NCBI GenBank assembly: GCA_000004985.1
Contig: GG738894.1
Source: Naegleria gruberi
Taxonomy: Eukaryota
Direction: 5' to 3' (one strand)
Length of the DNA stretch: 64,000 nucleotides
This document shows positions 2 to 53,615 of this stretch, in pieces. The position numbers were made by a program, and so were the translations under genes. Each line of letters begins with the position of its first letter. The first letter of the stretch is position 1. The notes beneath the pieces were generated by a model. It had not been told where the DNA came from, did not search any database, and saw only the letters and a list, made by a program, of their open reading frames with translations.

Positions 2-1315
2 CCTCTGCCACCATCATTAGGTAATTTCCCTGTAAAGAGAGTTGATGATTATCTTGATAGAGTTCCTGAAAAGTGGAAAAAGACAGGTGGTATATTTATT
101 CCACTCTATCAACGTGAAGCCATGTGGATGGAATTCCTAAATGTAAGCTCTGAACATCCTCATGCTTTGAAGGTTGCAGTTGGTAAAGTGAATGCTTTGA
201 GTGGTGAAATGTGGGATGAAGAAATGAAGGACAGATCTGTTCAGGATTATGTAGTAACTCCATTGCAACCATGGTTGGATGGTATTAATAGTGGAGATGG
301 AACCATTAAACAATTCATTGCCATGCCACTCGGACAAGGATACACTGTCGAATCTCAAGTCACTGGTGAGGATAAAGTAGGAGGTGCTCAAATTATCTGT
401 TTCAATCCAAATGAACAAAAGAGAAAGAGACAATTTGCTCCACAAGAACCAGTCAGAAGTGTTCCTCAACAACCAAAACCAATTTATCAACCACAAGTTT
501 TATTCACACCACCTTCAATGACTTCTCCTCCTCCTCCTACTTCTTTTGGATTCTCAATGGTTTCACCTCAACCACCACAGGGTTATCAACAACATTCTGT
601 TGTGCCATGTTGTGAATTAGTCAACTTGGGTTCATATGAAAAACAAGCTTGTGACTCTATTCAATCTCTTTCCTTTGATTGTTGTGAAAGTGAGGAATCC
701 TATGCTCCTCCATCTGCTCCATCTTATCAAAATTCATACTCTTCACAACCATCATCATCATCATCTTTAGTATCTGATTTATTCTGTGCAACAACCTCTT
801 CAACAGCCACCACTTTATCCAAACCACCATCAAATAGTGCACCAAAGATGAGGAAATCAAGCGATTCAAAATCTGAAAGAAAGAAAGAAAATTCATCAGT
901 ACCTTCTTCTGTTAAGGCTCAAGAATTGGGTCTTGCATCAGGAGGTAAAATGAAACAACAAATCATTGAAGATCCATATGGAGCTGAATTCTGGGACGTC
1001 TCCACCAAGGCAAGAGTTTTCATCCACATTGTAAATAGTGAAATGTTTGCCCAAATTACTGGTGAATCTGTTCCACCAACTCCAATTTCTGCTCAAACCT
1101 ATTCCAGTTATAATTATCCTTGGTTTGATCACTACACTGAAAATGTTGGAACTATTGGAAAGAGTGAAATCTTGTCTGGAGTTAAGAGTGTCAAGCAAAT
1201 CGATGAAGAAAAGTACGCATGGTCACAACAAGATGATTCCACAGTCAAAATCAATAATGTTGTGACACACAAGGAAACATTTGATAAGAATAGTGTTAGA
1301 GATGGAGATTGGTAA
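2..1315 (+). CDS. Hypothetical P/S/Q-rich protein, 5'-truncated by the window edge
   Basis: The frame of ORF 122..1315 stays open back to base 2 (…LGNFPVKRVDDYLDRVPEKWKKTGGIFIPLYQREAMWMEF…), so the gene starts upstream of the window. Poly-P/Q/S low complexity. No family recognised by eye. Confidence 0.45.
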   Translation, partial: PLPPSLGNFPVKRVDDYLDRVPEKWKKTGGIFIPLYQREAMWMEFLNVSSEHPHALKVAVGKVNALSGEMWDEEMKDRSVQDYVVTPLQPWLDGINSGDGTIKQFIAMPLGQGYTVESQVTGEDKVGGAQIICFNPNEQKRKRQFAPQEPVRSVPQQPKPIYQPQVLFTPPSMTSPPPPTSFGFSMVSPQPPQGYQQHSVVPCCELVNLGSYEKQACDSIQSLSFDCCESEESYAPPSAPSYQNSYSSQPSSSSSLVSDLFCATTSSTATTLSKPPSNSAPKMRKSSDSKSERKKENSSVPSSVKAQELGLASGGKMKQQIIEDPYGAEFWDVSTKARVFIHIVNSEMFAQITGESVPPTPISAQTYSSYNYPWFDHYTENVGTIGKSEILSGVKSVKQIDEEKYAWSQQDDSTVKINNVVTHKETFDKNSVRDGDW

Positions 1316-2085: not shown

Positions 2086-5000
2086 ATGCCTCAAAGTAGA
2101 ACAATTACACCAAATTTTCCCTCCATCAACATGTTCCTATTTCATCGAGAACCGTACTTTTTAGATTCGAGTGAGGATAAAAATCGTATTCAAATCAACA
2201 ACAAGAACAATAATAGGGATGATGGAGAAGCAAAAACAATATTAAGGATGAGAAGTTTGGATGAAACTGTGCGGGATGATGATACGCATTCTTCTTCAAT
2301 ACATCATCAAGAAGCCTTGGAACATGTTTTTGGTAAGACAAGAACATCTTCCGCTACAACGAGAACAGTATCACAAAATTCAAGGAATACTAATTATTTT
2401 AATGCTAATACAATAGCAAAAAGCGAGAATAACAACAACTACAAGAAAAACCTTATTAATCACCTGATAATATTATTATTAATTACACTCTTAGTTGTAC
2501 TTCCAACCTTTGTAGAGTGCCTACATCCATTCGCCACATACAATTGGAACAATGATGATGAGATTTGGTTTGCTCAGTCGGCACCATTTTCTGGCCCTAG
2601 TAGCACAATTGGGACAGGTAAGTAGTATCAACATGTAAATGTTCTATAGTGAGTACTTTAATTAGAATTGAGAAATGGAATATTAGCTGCTTTTAATGAA
2701 ATCAACTCTGTTGGAGGTATATTCGGAAAGAAGAAGCTGAGATTGATCAGTATGGACGATGGCTATGAACCACCCAATACAGTTCGCAACATTAATAATT
2801 TTCTGAATGGAAACAAGACAATATTTGGATTTATTGGAGTGGTAGGCTCACCCACTATTCTTGCAGCCTATGATTTGGTAGTGTCGTCTGGTCTTCCTCT
2901 GATTGGAAGTTACACAGGAGCTACATTTTTGAGACAGCCCTTTCATGCAAATTTTGTAAACATTAGACCATCATACTATGATGAAACAGCTGCAATTATG
3001 GATGTATTGATTGGAAAAAACATGGCGAGGAAAATATCAGTCCTTCATCAAGATGATCCTTTTGGAATTAATGGATATGAAGGAGTTAAACGTATACTTG
3101 ACCATATGGGAATTCCAATGTGTTCATCAGGAAGTTATCAAAGAAACACACTCAACGTTGAGGATGCATTCTACAAGATTGCAAAGTGTGATCCAGATGC
3201 TATTGTTGTAGTGGCACTGTATGCACCAGCAACAAAATTCATCAAAATGGTTACCAACTCGACCCTTTACCGAAAGGATATTTTATTTGCAGCAACCTCA
3301 ATAGCCAGCGATTTAATTGTAAAGGAGCTAGGCCCTGAAATTGCTCCAAGAGTTCTGTTTTCACAAGTTGCCCCTTCTCCAACAGATACATCCTCGACCC
3401 TTGTTAAATCTTTCATCACCGCAAGGAAATCAATAGATTCTAATTTTACACAAGGTACATTTATTGAAATAGAGGGATATATTGCTGGAAAAATGACGTA
3501 TCACTTGCTCCACAGAATAATTGGATACATGTCCCCCAGTAACATGCTGACTAATCTTTACTATTCACAAGAAGTTATGTTTGACAATTTGAAATTAGGA
3601 CCATTCTCTTCAGTGTCTGTCAAGGATCCTGTTTACCTTATTCAAACAAATTTTTCCACTCAATTTGATTGCAATCAAGGCTCAAAATCAGTTTGGAGGA
3701 CGAAAGCTGATTCTAACTTGAATTTCTATAATTATGCACCTCCATTTTCATGGTACACTTCTGGCACATGTATTTCAACCCCAGGCGATGTCATCAATCC
3801 AATTTTATTAGCACAACTTGTTTATAACAATCTAGGATCTTCTAATACCTATCTCACTAACGGAATTAAAGCCGCCTTATCCACTGCATATGTCCAGGGA
3901 AGACCTATACATCTACTAACTCGCACTTACTCAGATTTCCAATCTCTTATTTCCACCACTCAAGATCTCGTTGAAAACTACTATATTACTGCATTGGTTG
4001 GATCTTCTGGATTGGGAGAAGTTATTAGTTTAAATACTTCCTCTATTGATCTATTCAGAGAGATATTTAAAACATCCTTCCCACATATTCCTCTGATTGG
4101 AAGTGTAGTTGACAATCCGTCAATCATGTCAACAACTGGTTCGTTGTTTATCCCATCCATGGTAAACATTAGAAGTACAATCATTGAGGAAATTGGAACT
4201 TTGCTTCAACATGCATTCAAAAGAGGAGTTACCAGAATATCAATAGTGAACTGTCCTGCATACGTCCATATCAACAAAATTTTCAAACTTTTAATGTCAA
4301 AATTGCAACTAACAATTGAGAGTGAGCATGGATGCTCAGATACCATTCTTTTCGATAGCATCTCGATAAACCCACAAGTGGTTCTAGTAGCATGTGCATC
4401 TGCCATTCTCCCTGGAACTCTTTTAAAGTTGGATGCAAGTAGTAATCTTAGACAAGATGCATTGTTTTTTGTTTTGGAAGAGAAGAAAAAGCTAGTCTTG
4501 TCAAGCCTTGAGAGTGGACCTAAAGGTGTACAAAGACCTATCTTATATAGTTCTTCATTCCCAGATCCAAAAATCTCGGCCGTAACCATTGTTTCAAGAT
4601 TTAAATCAACTACACCGCCTCTAACAGATCTTTCTGGGTATTATTCTTCTGATTTGGCTCTTGAAGGATATTTTATTGGAGAGTTTGTTGGATCAATATT
4701 GGGATCAGTTGCAGATTCAGCACCCTCAATAACAGGTCAGGCAATTATTGACTTTATATACAAAAGTCAACAGATAGTGGTGAGAGACCAAAAGTATGGA
4801 TACTTTATTAGAGACAAGAAAAATTCATTGTGCAATATTGGGTCGAGAACAAGATTTCTATTCCAGATAAGAAATTGTTCAACCTCAATACTATCAACAA
4901 CAGGTTTCCAACAACAATCATGTTGTTTACAATCTGTTTTAGAGGATTCCAGTACCCTCAACTTTAGAAGACCAATGCAGTTCGTTAGATTCAAACCAGG

Positions 5001-7125
5001 AGACACTGAACAACTTACCATCGAAGCAATAGATGATTTTGCAAAAGGAGTAATATCTTTCATTAATGATATTAATACCATGGGGAAATATTCATTTGCC
5101 TTTCAATTTCTTACTCAAACTTTTAATGGATCTTCTGATATTCAAATGTTAGCTAACGATTTAACCTCTAAACAGCAAATATTTGGTGTTATCGCTCCAG
5201 ATGTAGATTATGACATTGAAATGTTTACGAACATTAGTTTACCAATTATCGGCCCCAAAACTGCTAACATGCAATACAGAAATTACAAAAAAAATGTAAT
5301 TAACATCTACCCTTCCTTAATAGATGAAATCTTCAATTTGGTTGAATTTTTCCTAAAATTTAGTGACGCAATTACTATTGTTTATGAGTCCTTGGATGTT
5401 AATAATTATGCTCAACCCCAGGTATTGAAAACTATCCAAAATATAATAACTAACAGACAACTTTCAAGAGTTTCCCTCACTTGTATGACTTGTGTCAGTG
5501 ATCAAGCAGGGTCAGTAATAATTATGGCAGAAACAGAAGAAATCATTCAGTTTATTAGAGCAAATCAGAAGATAATGAACAGAGTTGGTTTGATTTCAGA
5601 AGCATATGAAGAGCATGATGATCTTAAAGAGTTGTTGTCCCTTCATTCGAATGTTTACATGTCCACTATAGTATCCCTCACAACAGAAATGACGGGATTT
5701 GTGGAATCTGAATTCACAAAGCATTTTCAAGTTTCGTTTCCAAACGACGTGCCAACAATAGAGTCTATAGATGGTTTCGTTTCCTTTTTGTTTGTTGAAA
5801 AAGTATTTGAGTCATTCTTAGATAGAATACAACCAAGACAACAACAGGCTTTCATTGACAAGATATATAGTCTCTCTGTTTTAGATATTGGTGACATTAC
5901 TCTTGGAAAGTTCACCAATACCTGCAATCAAGGAACAAGAAGATTGTACGTTAGCAGATTTTCCCTTAGTAACACAAGTGAAGTCATAACAGTCACAGAA
6001 CCAAACAGTCTTTTCACAATTTCAACATGTGGGTATAACTTCCCTTCCCCTGCAGTCATGGATTATCTTTATTATATTCTAATTTCTATATTGGCTATAA
6101 TTTTTTTGATTGTAGCCATGGGAATATCAGGTTTATTAATTTACAGACAGTATAAGGCTAAAAAGTCACACCTTCATGCTCCAAAAGGAGGAGTCATTTC
6201 TTTTGCGTTTACTGATATTCAAAATTCTACTGTATTGTGGCAATACAATGAGAAAGCAATGAAATTAGCTCTTGCTATACATAACAAGATAGTTAGGGAT
6301 AATATTAAGAAATACAGAGGTTACGAAGTCAAAACTCAAGGGGATTCATTCTTTGTTGCTTTTAGAAAGATAGAAGATTGTATTAATTGGGCATTCTCTG
6401 TTCAAAGTGATTTATTGAAAGCAAATTGGCCATCTGATATTATTACACAGTATGATTGTAGACCAGAATTTGAGGAAGGAACAAAAGTTTTGATTTATTC
6501 TGGTTTGAGGGTAAGAATGGGGCTTCATTGTGGTCAAGCTGAATATATTTTTGATAAGACTGTGAAAAGACCAGATTACTTTGGCAACACCATTAACCAG
6601 ACTGCCAGAATTCAAGCTCTTGCAAGAGGAGGAGAAATATTATGTAGTGAGGCCATGTTACAAGAAAGCAAATATTTATTTAAAATTTCTGGCCCAAGTT
6701 TCGAGGAGGAATTGTCGCATCAATCCTTAAACATACCAAGAAGAAGCTCTGAATCCACATTGTCAAAGAAGCGTAGATCAGTTGTTCCTGGATCCAATCC
6801 AATCTATACAGCCGAAGATTTTGGATATTGCTCCCTAAAAGGTATTAAGGAGGAAGTCAGAGTCTTTACACTTAAAAATAATGATATGAAACTTAGAGTT
6901 TTTCCACCTATTGGAAGATACAAAAATATTGAGGAAACATCGAACAATACCTTGCGATCGATTGCTTCCGTTCCAACATTTGAAACATCAAGTATCAATG
7001 GAGATGATATCATTGTGCACATTCCTGATCAAGCATCAGACAACCAAAAGAGCAAACCTGAACGGTTGAACACTCAAGCGATTGAACTTCCAGAGATTAT
7101 GATTTCTGGTGTAGATAATAAATAA
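2086..7125 (+). CDS. Receptor-type class III nucleotidyl (adenylyl/guanylyl) cyclase. Two exons (2086..2617 and 2666..7125, intron ~2618..2665).
   Basis: Exon 1 ends GGT|GTAAGT and the acceptor is TTAG at 2664-2665, giving …STIGTG-E-LRNGILAAFNEINSVGGIFGKK in frame. Domain order is N-terminal cytosolic region, a TM (LINHLIILLLITLLVVL), about 1200 aa of ectodomain with two PBP type-I (ANF-receptor/LivJ-like) modules, a TM (ILISILAIIFLIVAMGISGLLIY), then the cyclase catalytic domain (FTDIQNST…KTQGDSFFVAF…GLRVRMGLHCGQAE…GNTINQTARIQ). Confidence 0.75.
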
Positions 7126-7145: not shown

Positions 7146-10100
7146 TTACTCCATTTTCAAAAGTTGACAAAGTCTGTCCAAGTCTGGATGATTTTCCATA
7201 TATGCAACAGTATCTTTTTCAAAGAGAGCAAATAATTCATCATCAACTTCATCGAGTCCCTTATCTCCCAACCCAGGAACATTCAATCTAAAGTATTCAC
7301 ACAAACTCTTTCCTTCCTTAAAGAACTCGAGCTGAGCAGTAGCCATTTTGTGAATTCTATCACTGCTCAATTGTAAGTTTACCACTGAAAGTAGTGTGTT
7401 CAATGTTTGAGAAATACCCTTGAATGCCTTCATGATTGACTTTTTCCTTGGTTTAGTATTAGTTCCTTGTGGACTTAAATTTAAATTGACTTCTTCATCT
7501 CCATCTTCTTCACTATTTTTCCCTGATAATGCTCCTGTTCCCAAACTAACAAAAACAAACTTGTCATGATTAGGGAATATTTGCTTAGCCTCATACATTG
7601 CTAAAATATAATTTTAAAACACAACACTTCTAATTAATACTTACAAAGTTGAATTGGATTATTTGCAACAACTGCACCATCTATAAATTCAGAATCACCA
7701 ATTACTCTTGGCTTGAAGTACATTGGGGCAGCAGAAGTAGCTCTAATAACATCCATAGCTGTAATACCAGCACCTGTGCTAGTACCTCGGTAGAATGATG
7801 GCTGTTTCTTTGATGAGCTTGTTAAAGATGAAGACTCACTTTCCTCTGTGTAGTCATAAGGGTCGCTGTATGTTCTGAAAACAAAGGCTGTTGGCTCATC
7901 CAAGTTCATTTTAGGATTCGAAGATTTGTCCATTGTAGAGACAAGGAATGTAAAAGGTTTCTTTTTGTGAAGAGTATTCAAGTCAACATCTTGAGTAAGA
8001 TTCATTGAGGTCATCTCAAGATGATATCCATCATACCAACTTCTACCTCTGAGGACTTTCATTGTCTTGACAAGAGACTTGTTGTGGGTTGTCTTCAAGT
8101 CAAAAATATTTTTACCAATGTCAATATAATATTCTTTAGCAAGCTTCATTGGAACTCCTCCATTAATAAGCAATGCAACAATTCCACCAGTACTTGTTCC
8201 AGCAACAATGTCAAATATTTCACAAATCTTCTTACCAACTCTTTCTTCAATTACCTTTAAAATCTCAATCAAAATAAGACCCTTCATACCACCACCATCC
8301 ATAGAAAGTACCTTTACAGTTTTGCCTTTCTTTTCCTCTCTGTGTTTGGAAAAGTTGGTAATGATATTGTCATTATCATTTTTCCATATTGGAGATTCTT
8401 CGAGGCCAACTTGTTCATCTTCAATTTTAACGTTAAACAACTTTCTTCTTCTATGAATTCTCTCTTTCAGTAAATCTCTCAAATAGATTGGTTCGGCAAA
8501 GTGAATCTTTGTACCTTCTTTGTGGAAAAATTTACATTTTTGCTTTACAGGATCATACTTCTCTTGCAAATACTTTTCCAACCAAAACTTTCTATCCAAA
8601 GTTTTAAGAATCAAATAATCAAATTTGTATTCCTCCTTAAACTTTGGACACTGCTCAAGAAGAGAATTGATCAAGTTCAATAGGTAAGTGTGGTTCTTGA
8701 TCTCTTGTTTTTGGTGGAACTTTCTGTACTTTTTGAGAATTAATCTCTTTGGAACATAATAAATAAAATTGGTATCTCTATTTCTTTCTTCCTCTATTAA
8801 TAAATCCAAGTAGTCTTCTGGAGTGAAAGGTAAATTTTCTTTGCATGTTGGGGTTGCATCATCAAACTCGTCACCCTCCTTACCTTGTTCGTTTGGAGTA
8901 GCAGGAGATGGTGCTGAGTTTGATACCTTTGCGTGTTCTTTTTCTTCCTTTTCCTCTTTTTCTTTCTTCTTCTTTTCAATATCTCTATATTCTCTATAGT
9001 ATTTCACCAAGGTTTTTGGTAAAACATTCTTACTCTTGAGCTTTTTACCACTTAATTTTTCAATGACTCTTCTAGCAAAGGAAAACGAGTGGTAATTATA
9101 GTAGGAGTATTTCTGTTTGGTATTGTATTCATTGATAATTTGACATGTTGTGTCTAATACTTTGGAAAGTGGTTGTTCAGACAAGTTGAATTCAATTGTA
9201 GGACAGTCAGATAAATCAATCTTATCTGTCGAAAATTGATGGACCAGAGAATCTTCAAGCCAAACATAAATTCTATTAAAAATTTTAACTCCAAATTTGA
9301 TAAAATCTAAATCTCTAATCCATCGATCTGCCATTATTCTAATAGGTTCAAATTTGGTCATGTAGGTATCAATATCCATCATTATAAGTTCAACTTTAAC
9401 ACACTTGATATCAAATTCTGACCCAAAAACTCCAGCAGCATGAGTCAAGTTAAAGCTTTTCACTCTTCTGTGAGCTTTCTTCTTGAGTGGTGATTGCAAG
9501 CTAGGAGTCTTTTTATCTAGGGCGACAACACTACCAGATCTAAGTAAACGAGGAGATACTGGCGAAATTCCTTGGTTATCAAGTTCTTGGAAGGCATTTG
9601 AAGTCACAGGAATAGACCTTGGTGAAAATGCATTAGCTGCCACCAATGGTGAAACTGGAACAAATGGTGAAGCAGAGGGATCAATCATGAATCTAATGTC
9701 ACCATCCCTATTACTAGCCAAAATATCAGTATCTCTCTCAACAGTTGATGGTACACCTGAGGAAATATCGTCTGCTGAATCAAAACGGTTTGTGAGTGTA
9801 ATTTTCTTTGTTGGTGTTTTAAATCCTGGCTCATCAGCAGTGCTGCTGATGATAGAAGCATTCCACAATGTAGCACTATCACTCAATGCCCTACGATGAA
9901 CGTATTGTTCGGAATTATTCTCTGATGAACTTGTTGATGTTACTACTCTTTCCACTTTTCTATTATTTTCTGTACAATTTACTTGTTGGTTTTGAGGGAG
10001 TTCGAGCTGAATTTCATTTGAATCATCTTCCTTAATTGAATTATTTTGTGTATTATCATTATTAATAACGGTTACAGATGACGTTTTTGTCTCATCTTCC

Positions 10101-10150
10101 CCAACTGTCTTGCCTTGCTCCGTAGTACTATGTTGTTGTTGTTGATTCAC
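7146..10150 (-). CDS. Patatin-like phospholipase (PNPLA/iPLA2-like). Two exons with an intron at ~7601..7644.
   Basis: GGGMKG oxyanion motif, the GTSTG (GxSxG) nucleophile and DGAVVANNP catalytic Asp in ORF 7634..10150. The downstream ORF 7146..7598 (…FVFVSLGTGALSG…) joins in frame through GTAAGT…TTTTAG, giving NNPIQL-S-MYEAKQ. The N-terminal 150 codons of the upstream ORF contain no ATG (see the next feature). Confidence 0.8.
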
Positions 10151-11231
10151 CTTGTTCCATCTTGTTTGCCTTATTATTTGTAACGGCTATATTTAAGGCT
10201 GATTGTTGTAGATCCACAGCAAGTGATACGTTTGATGCAAGTGATGGTGTTTTTGAGGTGTTTTTTTGTTTATCCTTGTCAGTAAGACGTCCACCTGCAC
10301 CACCACTAGTATTTGTTGGCGGGAAATTGAGATCCTTATCGTTATTGTTGGTGGTTGATGATGATGTCGATGATGATGATGAATCATTCATACTCTCCTC
10401 ATAGGGAAGAATATAATTTTCATACGGAGTGTAAAAGTAATATTGTTTGCAATAATTTAAATGATCAACTTGATGATGATGATTAGGACTATCATTATGG
10501 GCTGATGATGATGATGAAGCCTTCTTATAGGAACGTGATAAGAATAATTGTTTGGCCTTGAATTCATTATAGACTGTTCCACACATTTCACTGATGAAAC
10601 CATATTGTTGATTCTGCCAAATATTCCTCTTATTATTGGGAAGGATCACTTCATCGAGTTGATTGTGTTGTATCATGTTCGGATAAGTCTCTACCAAATA
10701 TCTGGTAAAATAGACTGGTGATTGGGCAATCTTATTCTTGAGAACATTCAATCGATTAATGTCCTTCTTATGGGCCAGCACAATATCTATATCATGATCT
10801 TCATCATCCTCTTCTTCAATATCATGATCTTCTTCATCTTCTTCTTCTTCGGATGAATCTCTAAAGGCAACCTTCTTATGATGATGATTATTATTATTAG
10901 TAGTAGTAGTAGTACTGGTGATGTTGGAACTATTAGAACTGTTATTACTAAAAATTGTTGGTGCTGTTGGTGTACCTCCTGGTGATTGAACACTAATGTT
11001 GAATAAATTGGCTTCACTATTCGAATTGCTCATTGTTGTGGAGGTGGTAGTAGTACTGGTACTTGTACTAGTAATTGAAGAAGTTGTGGTTGTAATGGAG
11101 GAAGATGATGAAACATGAGGAATTGGTTGATTAAAGGCATCAGCTGAGAGTGGAGTAACTTTGTGTTGTTGCTTGGAAGACGAAGAGGTACTTTCGTCCG
11201 ATTGTTGTTGTGTGTTGTGGAAACTGGTCAT
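10128..11231 (-). CDS. S/T/N-rich acidic low-complexity ORF. Probably the N-terminal part of the patatin gene, separated by a +1 frameshift in a (CAA)n tract.
   Basis: The ORF ends …KMEQGESTTTT* at 10128 and overlaps by 22 nt the start of the patatin frame. That frame is open but ATG-less for about 150 codons, which argues for one gene with a frameshift at ~10130-10150. Confidence 0.4.
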   Translation of the reverse strand: MTSFHNTQQQSDESTSSSSKQQHKVTPLSADAFNQPIPHVSSSSSITTTTSSITSTSTSTTTTSTTMSNSNSEANLFNISVQSPGGTPTAPTIFSNNSSNSSNITSTTTTTNNNNHHHKKVAFRDSSEEEEDEEDHDIEEEDDEDHDIDIVLAHKKDINRLNVLKNKIAQSPVYFTRYLVETYPNMIQHNQLDEVILPNNKRNIWQNQQYGFISEMCGTVYNEFKAKQLFLSRSYKKASSSSSAHNDSPNHHHQVDHLNYCKQYYFYTPYENYILPYEESMNDSSSSSTSSSTTNNNDKDLNFPPTNTSGGAGGRLTDKDKQKNTSKTPSLASNVSLAVDLQQSALNIAVTNNKANKMEQGESTTTT

Positions 11232-14793: not shown

Positions 14794-17100
14794 TTAAAAG
14801 TCATATAATTCATTTTCCTTTTGAAGTTCTGTGAGTTTGAGCCACTTTTTGTACTCTGCTGTTTCCTCAAGTCTAGAAAAGGTATCAGATACATTCTTAA
14901 TGACTTCAAAGATGAGGATTTCTCTCAATTCAGAGTAAGGGATTGAGTTTGCAGTTGGTGTTTGCTCACAAACTTGTTTCTTCTCTTCAAACCATTTGTA
15001 AAATGCCTTTTTAGTAGAGTTTGGAAAATTGACCTCAAACTTGGAATAATTTCTCATATAGAGCTCTTCAATTTGGGCAGCCTGTTCGAAAGTTAAGAAT
15101 GAATCTGCAGAATTGACGAGGGAACTTGAACTAAATGTTCGTGAGGTTCTTGAATTGGATGTAGGCAATGAGTCAGTAGATGCTCCCATACTTGATTTCG
15201 ATCTATCATTACCTGAAGATGGGCTTTTCTTATTCTCCAATGATATTAACATTTCATATAACATTACATTTTCAATTGAAAATTCCTTCTTTGCAAACTT
15301 TCTCAATAATTTCATCAAATTCACATCTTCCAATCTGGATTCCAATGTTCTCTTTCCTTTTGGTTCATTGCCTCTGTTTGAAGAAAGTAATTTACTTATT
15401 TTTCTATAAATTTCAATAATCATTGCACTTCCACCAAGAATTAAATAACAAGTCAATGAAAATAGAACTGTCAATACTCCAATGGCAAATTGATTATTAT
15501 ACACTAACAGGGTGATAATTGTGAGTACGAGGAGTAAAAATATGAGTAACAAGTCTATCTTGATATAGAACGGATCATCAAAGAAAAAGTAGTAGTATAT
15601 TCCTTTCTTTTTGATCTTTCTTCGATTTCCAATCATATCCAATAGCAAGAATATTAAACCAATTACAATACATAGAATAATGACAGCACCAAGAGGTGCA
15701 TTTCTGAAATATCCCAAATAGGAAGTAAGGTAAACTTCTTTTTCTAGTATCATGAGAACCGAAGCTCCAAGAGGAATAAAAGGTACTGTTACACTTGTAA
15801 CTAATCCTAACCACTTCTTTCCCAAAAACTTGAAAAATTTGAAATGATCAGATTTTGAAATTATTGTAAACAAATTTCTCAGATAGAAATATCTCACAAC
15901 TGTTATAAAATACAGGAATACAGGATACATTACAACTGCATTGGCTATTCCATTATACAATCGAGTGCAATTGGCAGTAAATACCATAATCTGGAAAATG
16001 TTTCGCATAATAACAAAGAGTGGGCAAAGGTATGGAACAGCCAATCTAATTTTGATGGATTTAGTATTAAATGTCAATAACAGACCAATATAGTAGATAC
16101 ATAGAAAAAAAATTGCATAAACACCTTGGATTTCTTCATATTTAACAGGTTCAAAGGCACAGGTGGAGGATGAACATTCATATACTTCACTGTTCATGTA
16201 AGAAAGGGTGATATTGGAGATTCCAATACTTGAAATTGTTTCGTTTGTATACAATGTGATTTGAGGGTAACTGCTTTGAAGATATTTCACAAAATTATTA
16301 AATTCGAAACTAGAATTTGATAGAGAAATTTTTGATGACCTAAACAGACAATAATCGTGATTCAAATAACATGAAGTACGGTAAGAATCCCCTTTCACTT
16401 CTTCTCTGCACAATCTAATTAATGAATCACATGTTGTAGTGAAGTTGTTAAAATAATCAGTGACACATGAGATTTGGTTTTGATCTAGACTGTTGGAATA
16501 TGAAAAGAACAATGGTGCCAATCTCACAACATTTAAATCTTCAACCTGTAGGTATCTACCTAGCTTGTTATTTCCTCTAATCAACCTCAAAACCTTTGGC
16601 ATTTCTCTGTCAGTTGTTATGATAATTGGACCTTCATTTGATGACCAATAATCAACAAGAATACTTCCAAACACGCAATCAGAGTTGATTCTAACAGCTG
16701 AAAGAATGGAAATAGGTTTGATATCAGCATATGCAGAAGTTGAAATATTATAAATTTCTAATAATGTGTTAAAGGAACTTTCTAATATTTTCAATCGTTG
16801 GTCGGAAACTGAGTAAAAATCAGAATTTGGAGTAAATAGAATGATTCTCTTGTTTTCAAATAGTGATCTTGGTGTAGTAGTTGAATAACCTTTAAGAGCT
16901 ATTGCAATAATAGTTTCATTGGACGAAACTATCTGAATTGGTTGTTGACCATAAATTTCCTTCAATTGACCAATACTCGCTGTCTTTAACCCACAACTAC
17001 AAATCACACAGTGTAGTTGAACTAAACACAACACCAATGAAATCGTAAAGCTGATGTGCATGTTTTTTTGACTTTTCGTTTGGCAAATCTCACATGTCAC
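14794..17100 (-). CDS. Seven-TM protein with a large N-terminal ectodomain and a C-terminal RGS domain (7TM-RGS)
   Basis: Signal peptide, an ectodomain of about 300 aa, seven hydrophobic helices between residues ~330 and 560, then an RGS box (…LLRKFAKKEFSIENVMLYEML…FEQAAQIEELYMRNYSKFEVNF…). Confidence 0.65.
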   Translation of the reverse strand: MTCEICQTKSQKNMHISFTISLVLCLVQLHCVICSCGLKTASIGQLKEIYGQQPIQIVSSNETIIAIALKGYSTTTPRSLFENKRIILFTPNSDFYSVSDQRLKILESSFNTLLEIYNISTSAYADIKPISILSAVRINSDCVFGSILVDYWSSNEGPIIITTDREMPKVLRLIRGNNKLGRYLQVEDLNVVRLAPLFFSYSNSLDQNQISCVTDYFNNFTTTCDSLIRLCREEVKGDSYRTSCYLNHDYCLFRSSKISLSNSSFEFNNFVKYLQSSYPQITLYTNETISSIGISNITLSYMNSEVYECSSSTCAFEPVKYEEIQGVYAIFFLCIYYIGLLLTFNTKSIKIRLAVPYLCPLFVIMRNIFQIMVFTANCTRLYNGIANAVVMYPVFLYFITVVRYFYLRNLFTIISKSDHFKFFKFLGKKWLGLVTSVTVPFIPLGASVLMILEKEVYLTSYLGYFRNAPLGAVIILCIVIGLIFLLLDMIGNRRKIKKKGIYYYFFFDDPFYIKIDLLLIFLLLVLTIITLLVYNNQFAIGVLTVLFSLTCYLILGGSAMIIEIYRKISKLLSSNRGNEPKGKRTLESRLEDVNLMKLLRKFAKKEFSIENVMLYEMLISLENKKSPSSGNDRSKSSMGASTDSLPTSNSRTSRTFSSSSLVNSADSFLTFEQAAQIEELYMRNYSKFEVNFPNSTKKAFYKWFEEKKQVCEQTPTANSIPYSELREILIFEVIKNVSDTFSRLEETAEYKKWLKLTELQKENELYDF

Positions 17101-18371: not shown

Positions 18372-20936
18372 TTATTGTTTAGGCATTGTATCACAGTAAT
18401 CTGTGTAGAGTGGGATATCTTCCTTAAGACCCTTTCTCTTTCTGATAGATTTGATGAGTTTGTGAACTTTAGATTGAGGATCATAAACATTGTCTTCCAT
18501 AACTTTCCAGTGACTGAAACTACATTGAGGGAAAGCTTGTCCTTGAGTAACACCTCTCAACTCTTCTGTTAAACCGAAACTTTCCAACACAGGTAAATTA
18601 CCAGTTATACTAACGAGAGGAGTACCAATTACCATTTCAGTAGATTTGATAACACCTCTTCTATTAGAAATGACACTATAGACAGAACCCATCACTGATT
18701 GAGGACATTGAACTTCAACAAGATACATTGGTTCAACTAACTTTGGATCAGCTCTCAATTGACTAGCAGTCATGACACGAGATGTTGCTTGGAGAATTTG
18801 ACCAGCTCCACGATGGATAGAATCTGCATGAAGATTACAATCATTAAATTTGAATAAAACACCTCTCATTGCTTCGTCACATAAACCTCCTGAAGAACTG
18901 CTTTGTTGGAAGCTAGTGACCACATATTGTTGAATTTCATTAATATAGTCAACTGACTTGGTTGCATTTACCAAAATGTTACTACCCTTATCAGCTTCAG
19001 GTCCAAAACTCCAAATTCTCTTTGTTATACTAGGATCCCATTCAAAGTCAATTTCTAAAATCTTTGCTCTCTTATTTTGATCATCCATTGGCAATTGACC
19101 TTCCTTAATCATTTCAATTAATTCCTCACTGATTGGTTCAGCTTGCATGTATAAACGATTGTGGCCGTTAGCACTTCTTGCCATGACCATGTCACCATTC
19201 TTATTTGAAACTGTTTCGTGGAAAGTGACAACAGGAGGAGACTTTTTAATTTGAATTCCTCTTGCATATTCTTCTTCTAAATTCTTTAAACAAATTTCCA
19301 AATGCAATTCACCTGCTGTTCCAAGAATATGTTGACCACTATCATTTTGCTTACATTCCAATAGAGGATCACTTTGAACGAGACGTTTCAAACCTTCAAC
19401 AAATCGAGATAAATCAGCTGGATTGACTGGCTCAACTCCCATTTGAACTACAGGACTCACAGAGTATTTCATATTCTTAATTGGCATACATGCAACTTGT
19501 CCTTCTTCTGTCAATGTACATGATTTGATAATGTACTTGTCAAGACCAACAATACCGACGATGGCACCACAAGAAGCTTGAGTGATACTTTCAGTGTTTT
19601 TACCAACCATGACTAACAATCTTTGAATGCTTGTATGGAAAACATCTTTCTTAGCAATTGGATCATAGTTAGGACCCAAAATTCTCACCTTAGTTGATTG
19701 AGTCAAACTACCAGAGAATATACGAGCTAGAGCAATAAAACGACCAACATTATTACTCATACTAGAGCTAGTATTAGAGTGCATAGGTACCATCTTACTG
19801 ACATAGACAACCAGTGGTGCATTTGGATCACATTCCTTAATACCAGTAGCGTATGGATCTGTCAAATCTTCACCAGTGTAGAGGTTATCATACCTGACCT
19901 TTTGAGCCTCTTTAGGAGAAGGTAAATGGTTGATAATCATTTGAACTAGAGGTTTGTGAGCTGGGAGGAACTTTCTCATGATTGATTTAGCTAAAAGTTT
20001 CGGCTCCTTTCTCTTTTCTTCTTTCGTCAGAGGTATAGACAATGCACCAATGATATTTTCCAAATCTGTTGACAAAATACCTTCACTCGAAATTGTATGT
20101 TCTCTAACCAACTTGAAAATCTTGAAAATAGGTTCTAAAATGAATTCACAGAAAGTATGTTTCAATTGTTGACCACTTGTCGATGAATAAGGTTCAGTGG
20201 TAAACTTCTTAGTTGAGTGATCATAATAATTTTCACCCCACAATTTGTTAATAACCTTCTCAACTGGAAGTTTAAACTTCTTGCTATATAATTGAGCGAA
20301 TTGCTCCAAAGTGAAAGCCCAACCCATCTTACCTGATCCAAAAGCAATGTTACAATCAACTGGATCAACAGAAACTGACTCATCAGAGTAAGTTGATAAT
20401 AGAGCATTCACAGACTCGATAATTCTTAAAAAGTTTTGATAACTTTCTTCTTCAGTAAATTGCATTTCTTCAATCAAACGGTCAACCTTGTTAATGAAGA
20501 GAACTGGACGAATTCTTTCTTGAAGAGATTGTCTAATTACTGTTTCAGTTTGACCTCTACAACCTTCAGCAGCATCAACAATCAGCACTGCACCATCAGT
20601 AATTCTCAAAGCTGTACTAACTTCAGATGAGAAATCAATGTGACCTGGACAATCGATCAAATTAACCAAATGATGATCATTCTCCTTGTCTGGATTTTCC
20701 AATACCATACTCAAACTTGTTGATTTAATGGTAATACCCTTTTCAATTTCATTCTTATCTACGTCACAAACTCTCTTCTCACCTGCAGCATCTTCATCCA
20801 CTAAACCAGCTGCTAAAGCCAATTGATCAGTGAGTGTTGATTTACCATGATCAACGTGAGCAATTATACTAATGTTACGAATCTTGTTACTGTCGAGTAA
20901 GAGCCTTTCGAGTATTTCTTTACTGAACTTGACCAT
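18372..20936 (-). CDS. eEF2: Elongation factor 2 (eEF2)
   Basis: 854 aa. G1 AHVDHGKST, G3 DCPGHIDF, G4 NKVDR. The diphthamide-loop sequence is HADSIHRGAGQI. Full collinearity with the EF2 family. Confidence 0.9.
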   Translation of the reverse strand: MVKFSKEILERLLLDSNKIRNISIIAHVDHGKSTLTDQLALAAGLVDEDAAGEKRVCDVDKNEIEKGITIKSTSLSMVLENPDKENDHHLVNLIDCPGHIDFSSEVSTALRITDGAVLIVDAAEGCRGQTETVIRQSLQERIRPVLFINKVDRLIEEMQFTEEESYQNFLRIIESVNALLSTYSDESVSVDPVDCNIAFGSGKMGWAFTLEQFAQLYSKKFKLPVEKVINKLWGENYYDHSTKKFTTEPYSSTSGQQLKHTFCEFILEPIFKIFKLVREHTISSEGILSTDLENIIGALSIPLTKEEKRKEPKLLAKSIMRKFLPAHKPLVQMIINHLPSPKEAQKVRYDNLYTGEDLTDPYATGIKECDPNAPLVVYVSKMVPMHSNTSSSMSNNVGRFIALARIFSGSLTQSTKVRILGPNYDPIAKKDVFHTSIQRLLVMVGKNTESITQASCGAIVGIVGLDKYIIKSCTLTEEGQVACMPIKNMKYSVSPVVQMGVEPVNPADLSRFVEGLKRLVQSDPLLECKQNDSGQHILGTAGELHLEICLKNLEEEYARGIQIKKSPPVVTFHETVSNKNGDMVMARSANGHNRLYMQAEPISEELIEMIKEGQLPMDDQNKRAKILEIDFEWDPSITKRIWSFGPEADKGSNILVNATKSVDYINEIQQYVVTSFQQSSSSGGLCDEAMRGVLFKFNDCNLHADSIHRGAGQILQATSRVMTASQLRADPKLVEPMYLVEVQCPQSVMGSVYSVISNRRGVIKSTEMVIGTPLVSITGNLPVLESFGLTEELRGVTQGQAFPQCSFSHWKVMEDNVYDPQSKVHKLIKSIRKRKGLKEDIPLYTDYCDTMPKQ

Positions 20937-52900: not shown

Positions 52901-53615
52901 TCTGTGAATGAGGAAAGACATTCTCCTCTGTGGTACTTCTCGTACTTATATCACTCATACTATTGTGAGGATTTGAATGATTAGAACTTTCCTGATTTTC
53001 ATGATTAGAAGCCACCTGATTGAGAAGACTAATTTCGGAGGGTGGAGTTGGCAAGGATGAAGTAATAACGAGTGGTTTCCTCGTGCTAGTTGTATTGGAT
53101 GTTAGGGCTGTTGATGATGATGCAATTGTTGCTGATGATGAATTATTGTTATTATTAATTTCATCATTTTGTGATGATGAAAGTGTTGATGATGATGATG
53201 ATATTGGATAGACAACACCCAATTCCGTGACAATCGATGAGGAAGAGGATGAATTGGACGATGATTGGTGTTCTATTAAATTATTCCCATTCATATCTTC
53301 CAATGAAGTTGAAACACTTTGATAGAGAACAGCTGCTGATACGTCCTTTATAGTTCTATTGATTATTGTTGTTGGTGTTGTTGTTGTTGTTGTTGGAATG
53401 GAAGAAGATTCTGAATTATCATCATGATGTTGTGAACAATCAAGTTTTTTCATAGCGTCAACATGATGATGATTAGGTGATAAGGAAGAAGATTCGCCTC
53501 CTTTACTACTCGAGGAATCGTCAGGAATAGCAGACGAAATATTGCCTTCTGTGCCGCTGCAGCTTGTCAATGATGACGTTGGCATTGATGTTATCAGAGA
53601 ATCATCATTACTCAT
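49964..53615 (-). CDS. Ankyrin-repeat, RGS and START (StAR-related lipid transfer) multidomain protein. Two exons (50419..53615 and 49964..50372).
   Basis: Ser/Thr/Asn-rich N-terminus. About 10 ANK repeats (GRTLLMTAVAHEN…TPLHVAVAHNH…TPLHVALKQGN). An RGS box (…FETLLQDFSFISRMKDYLATTNQQDTITFFETVMEYQ…). A START domain that spans a GTAAGT…TTTTAG intron (…MWIDPEYLCMRD…-HDIYSMAWPNSNRDFLTAMCCTYR…VTDFGGFLGSDFYAN). Confidence 0.7.

What the first reader, a model, noticed from the sequence alone, without database searches (positions are those of the whole stretch)
2086..7125. Receptor-type nucleotidyl cyclase with two tandem extracellular PBP-I (ANF-receptor-like) ligand-binding domains and no kinase-homology domain
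The topology is a TM, about 1200 aa of ectodomain made of two Leu/Ile/Val-binding-protein-like modules, a second TM, and a class III cyclase domain immediately after the membrane. Animal receptor guanylyl cyclases have one ANF domain plus a kinase-homology domain. Dictyostelium ACG uses a different (CHASE) sensor. The architecture here most resembles kinetoplastid receptor adenylyl cyclases, so it would be an unusual small-molecule-gated cyclase for an amoebozoan. Splicing of the 48-nt intron is needed to see the full gene.
Basis: partly seen in the sequence, partly recalled or inferred. Interest (0 to 1): 0.6.

Follow-up and report, generated by a model that had tools for sequence, protein, structure and literature searches.

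The report
Naegleria three-flytrap receptor adenylyl cyclase
This Naegleria gruberi gene encodes a membrane receptor with three (not two) tandem bacterial-type ligand-binding "Venus flytrap" modules outside the cell, joined by one membrane helix to a cAMP-making enzyme inside; it is a three-module variant of the receptor cyclases known from trypanosomes, to which Naegleria is related, and its public gene model is mis-spliced.

Summary
The gene is real. ORFs 2086..2625 and 2668..7125 join in frame across a 48-nt GT..AG intron (2618..2665) into a 1663-aa protein. It has a cytoplasmic N-terminus, TM1, a ~1160-aa ectodomain, TM2, a class III cyclase domain about 13 residues after the membrane, and no kinase-homology domain.

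Two corrections are needed. First, the ectodomain holds three homologous PBP-I modules, D1, D2 and D3 (pairwise hhalign probability 97-98%), not two. Second, the organism is Naegleria gruberi (Heterolobosea, Discoba), not an amoebozoan. Discoba also contains Euglenozoa, so a kinetoplastid-like receptor cyclase is expected here rather than odd.

All six catalytic residues lie on one chain and include the Lys/Asp pair that specifies adenine. This predicts a homodimeric adenylyl cyclase. The closest solved cyclase domains are T. brucei GRESAG4.3 and 4.1.

A paralogous locus conserves the intron position, its phase and TM1.

The same D1-D2-D3-TM-cyclase order recurs in at least three other loci. 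Ligand and activity are untested, and cyclase phylogeny does not settle common origin with kinetoplastid cyclases.

Verdict: a new variant of a known kind, of modest interest.

The parts
2086..2617 (+). Exon 1. It encodes the cytoplasmic N-terminus, TM1 and the first beta-strand and loop of D1 (aa 1-177 plus the first base of codon 178).
   Evidence: ORF list; sequence; splice arithmetic.
2618..2665 (+). 48-nt spliceosomal intron, GTAAGT...AATTAG, phase 1, containing an in-frame stop codon.
   Evidence: Sequence. A paralog on L001 has a 60-nt intron at the same position and phase, with a near-identical acceptor AATTAG|AATTGAGG. The alignment to the bacterial LIVBP 4kv7 runs ungapped across the junction. 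The neighbouring gene has a similar 44-nt GTAAGT..TTTTAG intron.
2666..7125 (+). Exon 2 (aa 178-1663 plus the stop codon). It covers the rest of D1, then D2, D3, TM2, the cyclase domain and the tail in one uninterrupted reading frame.
2086..2460 (+). N-terminal cytoplasmic segment (aa 1-125). It is low-complexity and Asn/Ser/Thr-rich with no Pfam domain. The true start could also be Met16 or Met55.
   Evidence: It is not conserved in the L001 paralog, which has only 23 residues before TM1.
2461..2523 (+). TM1 (aa 126-146, HLIILLLITLLVVLPTFVECL), a probable signal-anchor.
   Evidence: Hydropathy 2.3-2.7. A hydrophobic segment occupies the same place in the L001 paralog. The public model P0001 removes it as a 186-nt, in-frame, stop-free 'intron' at 2333..2518.
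2533..3768 (+). D1, the membrane-distal PBP type I / LIVBP-like Venus-flytrap module (aa 150-545, interrupted by the intron).
   Evidence: Peripla_BP_6 2.2e-31 and ANF_receptor 4.4e-9. 4kv7 at 4.8e-44 over 315 residues. It is the most conserved module among paralogs, at 44-49% identity.
3769..4965 (+). D2, the middle PBP-I-like module (aa 546-944), divergent.
   Evidence: Pfam gives only a weak partial hit. hhalign to D1 gives 98.4% and to D3 97.2%. It has a beta-alpha-beta pattern with pLDDT ~75-90 in the whole-ectodomain model. A D2-only model (pLDDT 61) returns only PBP-I folds, with E down to 5e-9 but low TM-scores.
4966..6048 (+). D3, the membrane-proximal PBP-like module (aa 945-1305). 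It is the module that matches the Pfam family PF25493 ('Adenylate cyclase, periplasmic binding protein-like domain').
   Evidence: PF25493 scores 53.5 bits on the whole protein and 33.4 bits on D3 alone, against a cutoff of 27.2. hhalign to D1 gives 98.0%. It is the least conserved module, at 28% identity.
6067..6147 (+). TM2 (aa 1312-1338), followed by the basic stretch RQYKAKKSH.
   Evidence: Hydropathy up to 2.8. A TM segment sits at the same place in all relatives examined.
6181..6888 (+). Class III cyclase homology domain (aa 1350-1585). It contains a ~45-residue Ser/Lys-rich insertion before the last strands.
   Evidence: Guanylate_cyc 1.4e-15. 1fx4 at 3.6e-25 and 1fx2 at 2.8e-23. Alignment with 26 cyclases.
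6214..6216 (+). Asp1361, the first metal-binding Asp (FAFTD).
   Evidence: Column conserved in all aligned cyclases; coordinates derived from the motif positions.
6331..6345 (+). Lys1400 (adenine-specifying) to Asp1404 (second metal-binding Asp), within YEVKTQGDSF.
   Evidence: Aligned with YEVKTVGDSF of GRESAG4.1 and 4.3.
6574..6609 (+). Asp1481 (adenine-specifying), Asn1488 and Arg1492 (transition-state residues), within RPDYFGNTINQTAR.
   Evidence: Aligned with GYDYYGRTSNMAAR of GRESAG4.3; coordinates derived from the motif positions.
6889..7122 (+). C-terminal tail (aa 1586-1663) with no recognisable domain.

Best explanation
The locus is one two-exon gene of Naegleria gruberi encoding a 1663-aa receptor-type adenylyl cyclase.

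Topology (inferred). TM1 acts as a signal-anchor with the N-terminus inside the cell. The ~1160-aa ectodomain, made of three tandem PBP type I (Venus-flytrap) modules, faces outward. TM2 returns the chain to the cytoplasm, and a class III cyclase homology domain follows after about 13 residues.

Catalysis. One chain carries both metal-binding aspartates (D1361, D1404), the adenine-specifying Lys/Asp pair (K1400, D1481) and the transition-state Asn/Arg pair (N1488, R1492). The active enzyme should therefore be a head-to-tail homodimer with two symmetric ATP sites that makes cAMP. This follows from the general mechanism of class III cyclases.

Regulation (inferred, not shown). Ligand-induced closure or re-packing of the flytrap modules changes the spacing or orientation of the two TM2 helices, and so changes the productive pairing of the catalytic domains. 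No kinase-homology domain or coiled-coil transducer lies in between. D1 is the most likely ligand-binding module. It is the most conserved, and its nearest solved relatives are bacterial binding proteins, some of them crystallised with amino acids or aromatic carboxylates. D2 and D3 are more divergent and may serve as further sensors, spacers or dimerisation modules.

Evolution. It belongs to a small heterolobosean group of VFT-TM-cyclase receptors. These are most simply read as relatives of the euglenozoan (Euglena and kinetoplastid) receptor adenylyl cyclases, with one extra flytrap module.
For: Gene structure:
- establish the ORFs, the intron and the in-frame join.
- Intron position, phase and TM1 are conserved in the L001 paralog.
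- The alignment to the bacterial LIVBP 4kv7 is ungapped across the exon junction.
- An independent contig, L002, encodes D1-D2-D3-TM-cyclase in one 1562-aa ORF.

Domains:
- Pfam hits.
- Three-way module homology.
- AlphaFold and Foldseek give PBP-I folds.

Catalytic residues and adenine specificity:
- Alignments with GRESAG4.1/4.3, Ma1120 and 23 other cyclases.

Relatives:
- N. lovaniensis and Euglena gracilis have VFT-TM-cyclase proteins.
- In an NJ tree the three-module proteins form a clade (bootstrap 96). The Naegleria VFT-cyclases sit next to Euglena plus T. brucei.

Conservation gradient:
- D1 > D2 > D3 in identity among paralogs.

Literature:
- Trypanosomatid receptor cyclases are described as two VFT domains, one TM and a catalytic domain, activated by dimerisation (PMC6027212).
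Against: - No transcript, protein or enzymatic data were available. The collection searched held no spliced product other than the mis-modelled P0001.
- The ligand is unknown. T. brucei receptor cyclases, the closest described family, still have no identified ligand and respond to acid, osmotic or proteolytic stress.
- The sister grouping with euglenozoan cyclases has only 22% bootstrap support.
- By raw score the cyclase domain is closer to a myxobacterial cyclase (129 bits) and a fungal Cyr1-type cyclase (123 bits) than to Euglena (91) or T. brucei (92/86).
- PF25493 also hits VFT modules attached to 7TM and kinase outputs in other protists, so it is not specific to cyclases.
- Whether TM1 is retained or cleaved was not tested.
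- The structure models are of medium confidence (D2 alone: low).
Confidence: 0.8

Rival explanations
1. The flytrap modules are not ligand sensors. Like T. brucei receptor cyclases, the enzyme would be switched on by membrane, osmotic or pH stress, with the ectodomain acting only as a dimerisation or steric scaffold.
For: No ligand is known for any trypanosomatid receptor cyclase, and stress activates them (PMC6027212). D2 and D3 are highly divergent. D3 is only 28% identical between paralogs, and D2 barely registers in Pfam.
Against: D1 keeps a full-length, high-scoring match to bacterial solute-binding proteins (4.8e-44). It is also the best-conserved module among paralogs (44-49%), which suggests constraint on a binding function.
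Confidence: 0.25
2. The architecture arose independently in Heterolobosea by shuffling a protist VFT array onto a cyclase. On this reading it is convergent with kinetoplastid receptor cyclases, not homologous as a whole.
For: VFT arrays of the same D1 type are fused to 7tm_3 receptors (P0004-6, P0019, P0024) and to a kinase (P0021, Mastigamoeba) in other protists. The cyclase tree does not resolve the node (bootstrap 22). Bacterial and fungal cyclases score higher than euglenozoan ones.
Against: The domain order is the same, with one TM directly before the cyclase domain. Both lineages belong to Discoba. The NJ topology does place them as neighbours. D3 matches the Pfam family PF25493 ('Adenylate cyclase, periplasmic binding protein-like domain') above its threshold.
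Confidence: 0.35
3. It is a guanylyl cyclase, like animal ANF-receptor cyclases.
For: It has an ANF_receptor Pfam hit on D1 and a receptor topology.
Against: The substrate-specifying positions are Lys1400 and Asp1481, as in GRESAG4 and other adenylyl cyclases, not Glu/Cys. There is no kinase-homology domain. The best solved matches are adenylyl cyclases.
Confidence: 0.04
4. The public model (P0001, 1585 aa) is right. On this reading the TM1-coding stretch 2333..2518 is an intron and the real acceptor of the second intron lies 54 nt further downstream.
For: Both alternative introns have GT..AG ends.
Against: - The 186-nt 'intron' is in frame, free of stop codons and encodes a strong TM helix.
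- The L001 paralog keeps a hydrophobic segment at the same place.
- Without TM1, the 1160-aa ectodomain would have no signal or anchor sequence.
- The farther acceptor deletes ELRNGILAAFNEINSVGG. That stretch is conserved in the paralog (ELRDGILTAFHELNSAGG) and aligns residue for residue with 4kv7.
Confidence: 0.04

Closest known systems
Kinetoplastid receptor-type adenylyl cyclases (T. brucei ESAG4/GRESAG4, Leishmania RAC-A/B, Bodo saltans RACs) and the Euglena gracilis homologue P0027
   Same: Both have a large extracellular PBP/Venus-flytrap region, then a single TM helix, then a class III catalytic domain with all catalytic residues on one chain and Lys/Asp adenine specificity. There is no kinase-homology domain. 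GRESAG4.3 and 4.1 are the best solved matches (1fx4 3.6e-25, 1fx2 2.8e-23). The membrane-proximal module matches PF25493. Both lineages belong to Discoba.
   Different: This protein has three flytrap modules where the literature describes two. Its ectodomain is about 1160 aa, against roughly 90 kDa. Its hydrophobic start-transfer segment lies 125 residues from the N-terminus, so it is probably an uncleaved anchor giving a 2-TM protein. The insertion in the catalytic domain is about 16 residues shorter than the GRESAG4 delta-subdomain. The catalytic domain aligns over about 155-170 residues with moderate similarity, and monophyly is unresolved.
Animal membrane guanylyl cyclases (natriuretic peptide receptors GC-A/GC-B)
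   Same: They share an extracellular ANF_receptor/PBP-I module, a single TM and a C-terminal class III cyclase that works as a dimer. GC-A and ANP-receptor ectodomains appear among the fold matches of D2.
   Different: Animal enzymes have one flytrap, a kinase-homology domain, a coiled-coil linker and Glu/Cys guanine specificity. This protein has three flytraps, no kinase-homology domain, a ~13-residue linker and Lys/Asp.
Bacterial Leu/Ile/Val-binding-protein family (e.g. PDB 4kv7, 3lop, LivJ 1z15)
   Same: D1 aligns over essentially its full length (4kv7 4.8e-44). The fold match has TM-scores up to 0.80 relative to the target.
   Different: The bacterial proteins are free periplasmic proteins that feed ABC transporters. 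Here the module is triplicated and covalently wired to a cyclase.
Protist tandem-VFT class C-like GPCRs and VFT-kinases (P0004-6, P0019 from Paulinella, P0024; P0021 from Mastigamoeba)
   Same: They carry arrays of two or three D1-type flytrap modules, and the last module has the same Cys-containing end.
   Different: The output is a 7tm_3 bundle or a protein kinase instead of a cyclase.
Dictyostelium ACG and fungal Cyr1-type cyclases
   Same: The class III catalytic domain of Cyr1-type enzymes belongs to the same insertion-bearing subgroup. The fungal Cyr1-type domain scores 123 bits.
   Different: The sensors differ. The fungal cyclase P0007 carries LRR and PP2C domains. Neither has PBP modules.

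Membership tests
Class III nucleotidyl cyclase (Pfam PF00211) | Catalytic-domain HMM match above the curated threshold | tested here: met
   57.8 bits against a cutoff of 21.9, E 1.4e-15, aa 1354-1510.
Class III nucleotidyl cyclase (Pfam PF00211) | Two metal-binding Asp residues plus transition-state Asn and Arg | tested here: met
   D1361, D1404, N1488 and R1492 lie in conserved columns of the alignment.
Adenylyl (versus guanylyl) cyclase | Lys and Asp at the two base-specifying positions (Glu/Cys in guanylyl cyclases) | tested here: met
   K1400 in EVKTQGD and D1481 in RPDYFG, aligned with the same residues of GRESAG4.1/4.3.
Adenylyl (versus guanylyl) cyclase | cAMP formation from ATP | not testable with these tools
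   Needs an enzyme assay.
Kinetoplastid/euglenozoan receptor adenylyl cyclase (RAC) | Extracellular PBP/VFT region, then a single TM, then the catalytic domain, with no kinase-homology domain | tested here: met
   The family description is taken from PMC6027212.
Kinetoplastid/euglenozoan receptor adenylyl cyclase (RAC) | Two VFT domains in the ectodomain | tested here: not met
   Three homologous modules are present.
Kinetoplastid/euglenozoan receptor adenylyl cyclase (RAC) | Match to the Pfam family PF25493 (Peripla_BP_A-cyclase) | tested here: met
   53.5 bits for the whole protein and 33.4 bits for D3 alone, against a cutoff of 27.2. Caveat: the family also hits VFTs of protist GPCR-like and kinase proteins.
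Kinetoplastid/euglenozoan receptor adenylyl cyclase (RAC) | Catalytic domain forms a clade with RAC catalytic domains | tested here: inconclusive
   It is a neighbour of Euglena plus T. brucei in the NJ tree, but with bootstrap 22. Bacterial and fungal domains score higher in pairwise comparison.
Kinetoplastid/euglenozoan receptor adenylyl cyclase (RAC) | Insertion (delta-subdomain) in the catalytic domain | tested here: inconclusive
   An insertion is present at the same site but is about 16 residues shorter than in GRESAG4. Fungal, oomycete and myxobacterial cyclases share the same insertion site.
Kinetoplastid/euglenozoan receptor adenylyl cyclase (RAC) | N-terminal cleaved signal peptide (type I topology) | tested here: inconclusive
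   The hydrophobic segment starts at aa 126, or 23 residues from the start in the L001 paralog. No signal-peptide predictor was available.
Kinetoplastid/euglenozoan receptor adenylyl cyclase (RAC) | Flagellar or surface localisation | not testable with these tools
   Needs microscopy or proteomics.
Animal receptor guanylyl cyclase (ANF-receptor type) | Kinase-homology domain between the TM and the cyclase | tested here: not met
   No kinase hit at E <= 1. Only about 13 residues separate TM2 from the catalytic domain.
Animal receptor guanylyl cyclase (ANF-receptor type) | Glu/Cys guanine-specifying residues | tested here: not met
   The residues are Lys1400 and Asp1481.
Periplasmic binding protein type I (LIVBP-like) | HMM or profile match over both lobes, for each module | tested here: met
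   D1: PF13458 at 110 bits, and 4kv7 at 4.8e-44. D2: hhalign to D1 gives 98.4% over 311 columns. D3: PF25493, and hhalign to D1 gives 98.0%.
Periplasmic binding protein type I (LIVBP-like) | Binding of a small ligand in the inter-lobe cleft | not testable with these tools
   Pocket residues were not mapped reliably. This needs binding assays or a structure.

The most novel reading that the evidence does not exclude
Receptor adenylyl cyclases of the VFT-TM-cyclase type, treated in the literature as a hallmark of trypanosomatids or kinetoplastids, would date back to the common ancestor of Heterolobosea and Euglenozoa. The Naegleria three-flytrap form would preserve a near-bacterial, still ligand-competent LIVBP module (D1). 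If so, it could be the first member of this orphan receptor family for which a ligand (an amino acid or aromatic carboxylate) can be identified, in a free-living and culturable organism.
Probability: 0.35. Interest if true: 0.55.

Novelty: new variant of a known kind. Interest (0 to 1): 0.35.

Why it matters
Trypanosome receptor cyclases matter for host immune evasion and for parasite social motility, yet no ligand has been found for any of them, and they are usually presented as a trypanosomatid speciality.

This locus shows a related receptor in free-living Naegleria with one extra sensor module. Its outermost module is still close to bacterial solute-binding proteins. That gives an outgroup for reconstructing how the family arose, and a potentially easier protein for finding a ligand.

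In practice, the public N. gruberi model of this gene, and the models of its paralogs, are mis-spliced or split. Automated censuses of Naegleria cyclases therefore misdescribe this subfamily.

The gain is incremental. The domains are visible to routine Pfam annotation, and the mechanism proposed is the standard one for dimeric class III cyclases.

Tried and rejected
- Transcript evidence. The homology search found no transcript-derived product apart from the mis-modelled P0001. The intron therefore rests on comparative evidence only.
- Locus of paralog P0003. It was not on record.
- Literature. No held paper links Naegleria with receptor-type adenylate cyclases. The N. gruberi genome paper is not held. 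The Euglena genome paper mentions Naegleria cyclase families only in general terms.
- Cyclase phylogeny. NJ with 200 bootstraps on about 160 columns did not resolve the position relative to euglenozoan, fungal, oomycete and myxobacterial cyclases. The word-indexed search returned no kinetoplastid sequences, so T. brucei was represented only by the two PDB fragments.
- Whole-ectodomain structure including exon 1. The model therefore starts at aa 180.
- D2-only model. It has low confidence (pLDDT 61) and low TM-scores, so it is used only as supporting evidence.
- Ligand-pocket mapping against E. coli LivJ. It was considered and dropped. LivJ is only a weak, partial sequence hit (1z15, E 7.7e-4), and I would have had to rely on a sequence recalled from memory.
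- Other readings rejected: guanylyl cyclase, two separate genes, and bacterial contamination. The locus has a spliceosomal intron and is identical to the N. gruberi nuclear genome.

Full report
**What is in the sequence**

On the + strand, an ATG-initiated ORF of 179 aa (2086..2625) is followed 42 nt later by an ORF of 1485 aa (2668..7125). Between them lies gtaagtagtatc...ttaattag (2618..2665, 48 nt), which carries an in-frame TAG. Removing it joins the two frames in phase 1 (G|AA = Glu178). The product is 1663 aa with a single terminal stop.

Hydropathy shows two strong membrane segments, at aa 126-146 and 1312-1338. Pfam finds four families on the spliced product:
- Peripla_BP_6 at 166-453 (2.2e-31).
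- ANF_receptor at 183-391 (4.4e-9).
- PF25493, 'Adenylate cyclase, periplasmic binding protein-like domain', at 945-1268 (2.6e-14).
- Guanylate_cyc at 1354-1510 (1.4e-15).

No kinase domain is hit. The physical observation is therefore correct. With an uninterrupted 1485-codon frame in 36% G+C DNA and E-values of this size, it is far beyond chance.

**Whose gene it is**

The best database match is a Naegleria gruberi 'predicted protein' of 1585 aa, P0001. All three of its segments are exact substrings of my spliced product. N. gruberi belongs to Heterolobosea within Discoba. It is not an amoebozoan.

The public model differs in two places:
- It splices out 2333..2518. This stretch is 186 nt, in frame and free of stop codons, and it encodes TM1.
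- It pairs the 2617 donor with an acceptor 54 nt further downstream. This deletes ELRNGILAAFNEINSVGG.

No transcript data could be reached, so the test is comparative.

A paralogous locus on a Logan contig (L001) is 37% identical at the protein level. Its product has a short N-terminus, then a hydrophobic segment (AIIFVLILLFIITF), then EIWFGQSAPLTGPSGSVGQ. A 60-nt GT..AG intron with in-frame stops follows at exactly the same codon position and phase. Its acceptor is AATTAG|AATTGAGG, and the next exon begins ELRDGILTAFHELNSAGG.

The spliced D1 also aligns without a gap across the junction to the bacterial binding protein 4kv7 (sapfsgpsstigtelrngilaafne against STALSGPAAELGINMRHGILAAFDE). In addition, the neighbouring patatin-like gene has a 44-nt GTAAGT..TTTTAG intron, so short introns of this kind occur in this region.

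**Three modules, not two**

An ectodomain of about 1160 aa is too long for two PBP modules of ~370 aa each. I aligned the three paralogs, cut the alignment into thirds and ran profile-profile comparisons:

| Pair | Probability | E-value | Columns |
|---|---|---|---|
| D2 vs D1 | 98.4% | 5e-15 | 311 |
| D2 vs D3 | 97.2% | 3.6e-11 | 312 |
| D1 vs D3 | 98.0% | 2.3e-13 | 297 |

Each module ends with C-N-[QI]-G-x-[KR], at aa 513, 900 and 1264.

An AlphaFold model of aa 180-1310 (8-sequence alignment, pLDDT 73.5, pTM 0.56) shows three successive beta-alpha-beta modules. Its Foldseek matches in the PDB are all PBP type I proteins. These include bacterial LIVBP-like proteins (4kv7 at 2.6e-18; 4m88 with target TM-score 0.80), GABA-B receptors and glutamate-receptor amino-terminal domains.

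A D2-only model has low confidence (pLDDT 61). It still retrieves only PBP-I folds, including the ANP-receptor ectodomain, though with low TM-scores.

Identity to the paralogs falls from D1 (44-49%) through D2 (36-38%) to D3 (28%).

**The cyclase**

The closest solved structures are T. brucei GRESAG4.3 and 4.1 (1fx4 at 3.6e-25, 1fx2 at 2.8e-23). A mycobacterial cyclase, Ma1120, follows.

In a 27-sequence alignment the protein has all six catalytic residues:
- Both metal-binding aspartates: D1361 in FAFTD and D1404 in KTQGD.
- The adenine-specifying pair: K1400 and D1481.
- The transition-state pair: N1488 and R1492.

All six lie on one chain. By the established mechanism of class III cyclases, this means a homodimer with two symmetric sites that uses ATP.

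Only about 13 residues separate TM2 from the first strand of the catalytic domain.

An insertion after the helix ending ...LLKANWP aligns with the GRESAG4 'delta-subdomain' but is about 16 residues shorter. The same insertion site is occupied in fungal, oomycete, myxobacterial and Euglena cyclases, so it is not diagnostic.

**Relatives**

An exhaustive HMMER search with D2+D3 against 1.84 billion representative proteins found only 22 hits at E <= 1e-3. Pfam scans and source names, together with a scan using HMMs built from D1, D2 and D3, show the following:

- **Same three-module order.** It recurs in the L001 paralog, in a second N. gruberi locus (P0003 plus its split-off cyclase P0031), and in an environmental or Logan protein (P0029/P0010). 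P0029 is encoded as one 1562-aa ORF on L002.
- **Further N. gruberi fragments.** P0032 and P0008 lie on other contigs, so the genome has about four such loci.
- **Shorter VFT-TM-cyclase proteins.** N. lovaniensis has P0012 and P0017.
- **Euglena gracilis.** P0027 has a D1-type module, a weak D3-type module, a TM and a cyclase domain, 1191 aa in all. This is the layout described for the kinetoplastid receptor cyclases.
- **Other outputs.** Arrays of D1-type flytraps are attached to 7tm_3 receptors (including Paulinella) and to a protein kinase (Mastigamoeba).

The three-module cyclases form a clade with bootstrap 96. The Naegleria VFT-cyclases sit next to Euglena plus T. brucei (themselves bootstrap 100), but that joining node has only 22% support. 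By pairwise score, a myxobacterial cyclase (129 bits) and a fungal cyclase (123 bits) beat Euglena (91) and T. brucei (92/86).

Common origin with the euglenozoan receptor cyclases is therefore the simplest reading. It is not demonstrated.

**How it most likely works**

Shown:
- The domain composition and order.
- The catalytic and specificity residues.
- The conservation of the architecture across loci.

Inferred:
- TM1 is a signal-anchor. This is suggested by the basic residues before TM1 and after TM2, and by the fact that no other start-transfer signal exists for the ectodomain.
- The three flytraps face outward.
- Ligand-driven closure or re-packing is passed through TM2 to the pairing of the two catalytic domains, which switches on cAMP synthesis.

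D1 is the best candidate sensor. The solved relatives of D1 include proteins crystallised with leucine, 3-hydroxybenzoate, phenylpyruvate and p-coumarate, so an amino acid or aromatic carboxylate is a reasonable guess.

The main functional rival is stress-driven activation without a ligand, as reported for T. brucei enzymes (PMC6027212).

**Comparison with what is known, and novelty**

The trypanosomatid literature calls receptor-type cyclases a hallmark of trypanosomatids, with two VFT domains. A large phylogenetic study extended them only as far as Bodo saltans (PMC7719234).

I found no paper that connects Naegleria with this family. The N. gruberi genome paper was not available.

This gene is therefore an undescribed, mis-annotated three-flytrap variant of a known kind of receptor, in a lineage where a relative of that receptor is plausible.

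Interest is modest. It corrects a gene model. It widens the known range and module number of VFT-cyclases. It also offers a possibly tractable protein for de-orphanising the family.

Noticed in passing
window 2333..2518 and 2618..2719: The public N. gruberi model P0001 (1585 aa) is mis-spliced. It removes a 186-nt, in-frame, stop-free stretch that encodes TM1, and it uses an acceptor 54 nt too far downstream, which deletes 18 conserved PBP residues. The paralog models P0002 and P0003 are truncated, and their cyclase domains are annotated as separate 'partial' proteins (P0031, P0032).
   Followed up: yes
L001 ~8550..8600 (paralog); window 6325..6345 for comparison: Two paralogs (L001/P0002 and N. 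gruberi P0003) appear to have an intron inside the cyclase domain, right after YEVKT. Their gene models run on into ...KTVS... and stop. The window gene has no intron there.
   Followed up: partly
window 7146..10150 (-): The convergent neighbour is a patatin-like phospholipase (PF01734, 9.5e-25). It has a 44-nt GTAAGT..TTTTAG intron at 7601..7644 that joins ORFs 7634..10150 and 7146..7598. Its stop codon lies only ~20 nt from the cyclase gene's stop codon.
   Followed up: partly
window 50415..53615 (-): A 1066-aa ORF combines ankyrin repeats with an RGS domain (PF00615, 1.3e-7). It is another signalling protein in the same window.
   Followed up: no
window 18372..20936 (-) and 22763..24784 (+): An EF-2/EF-G-type translation GTPase with all five domains, and an F-box protein. 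Several other long ORFs (122..1315, 10128..11231, 14794..17100, 41453..43375) have no Pfam match.
   Followed up: no
P0004-P0006, P0019, P0024, P0021 (not in the window): D1-type flytrap modules occur in arrays of two or three, fused to class C-like 7TM bundles (including Paulinella) and to a protein kinase (Mastigamoeba). Tandem-VFT sensor arrays therefore look like a reusable input cassette across distant protists.
   Followed up: partly
window 3670..3681, 4831..4842, 5923..5934 (aa 513, 900, 1264): Each flytrap module ends with a conserved C-N-[QI]-G-x-[KR] motif, followed ~30 residues later by another conserved Cys (C546, C930/931, C1299). This may be a disulfide-closed hairpin linking the modules. 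It was not examined structurally.
   Followed up: no
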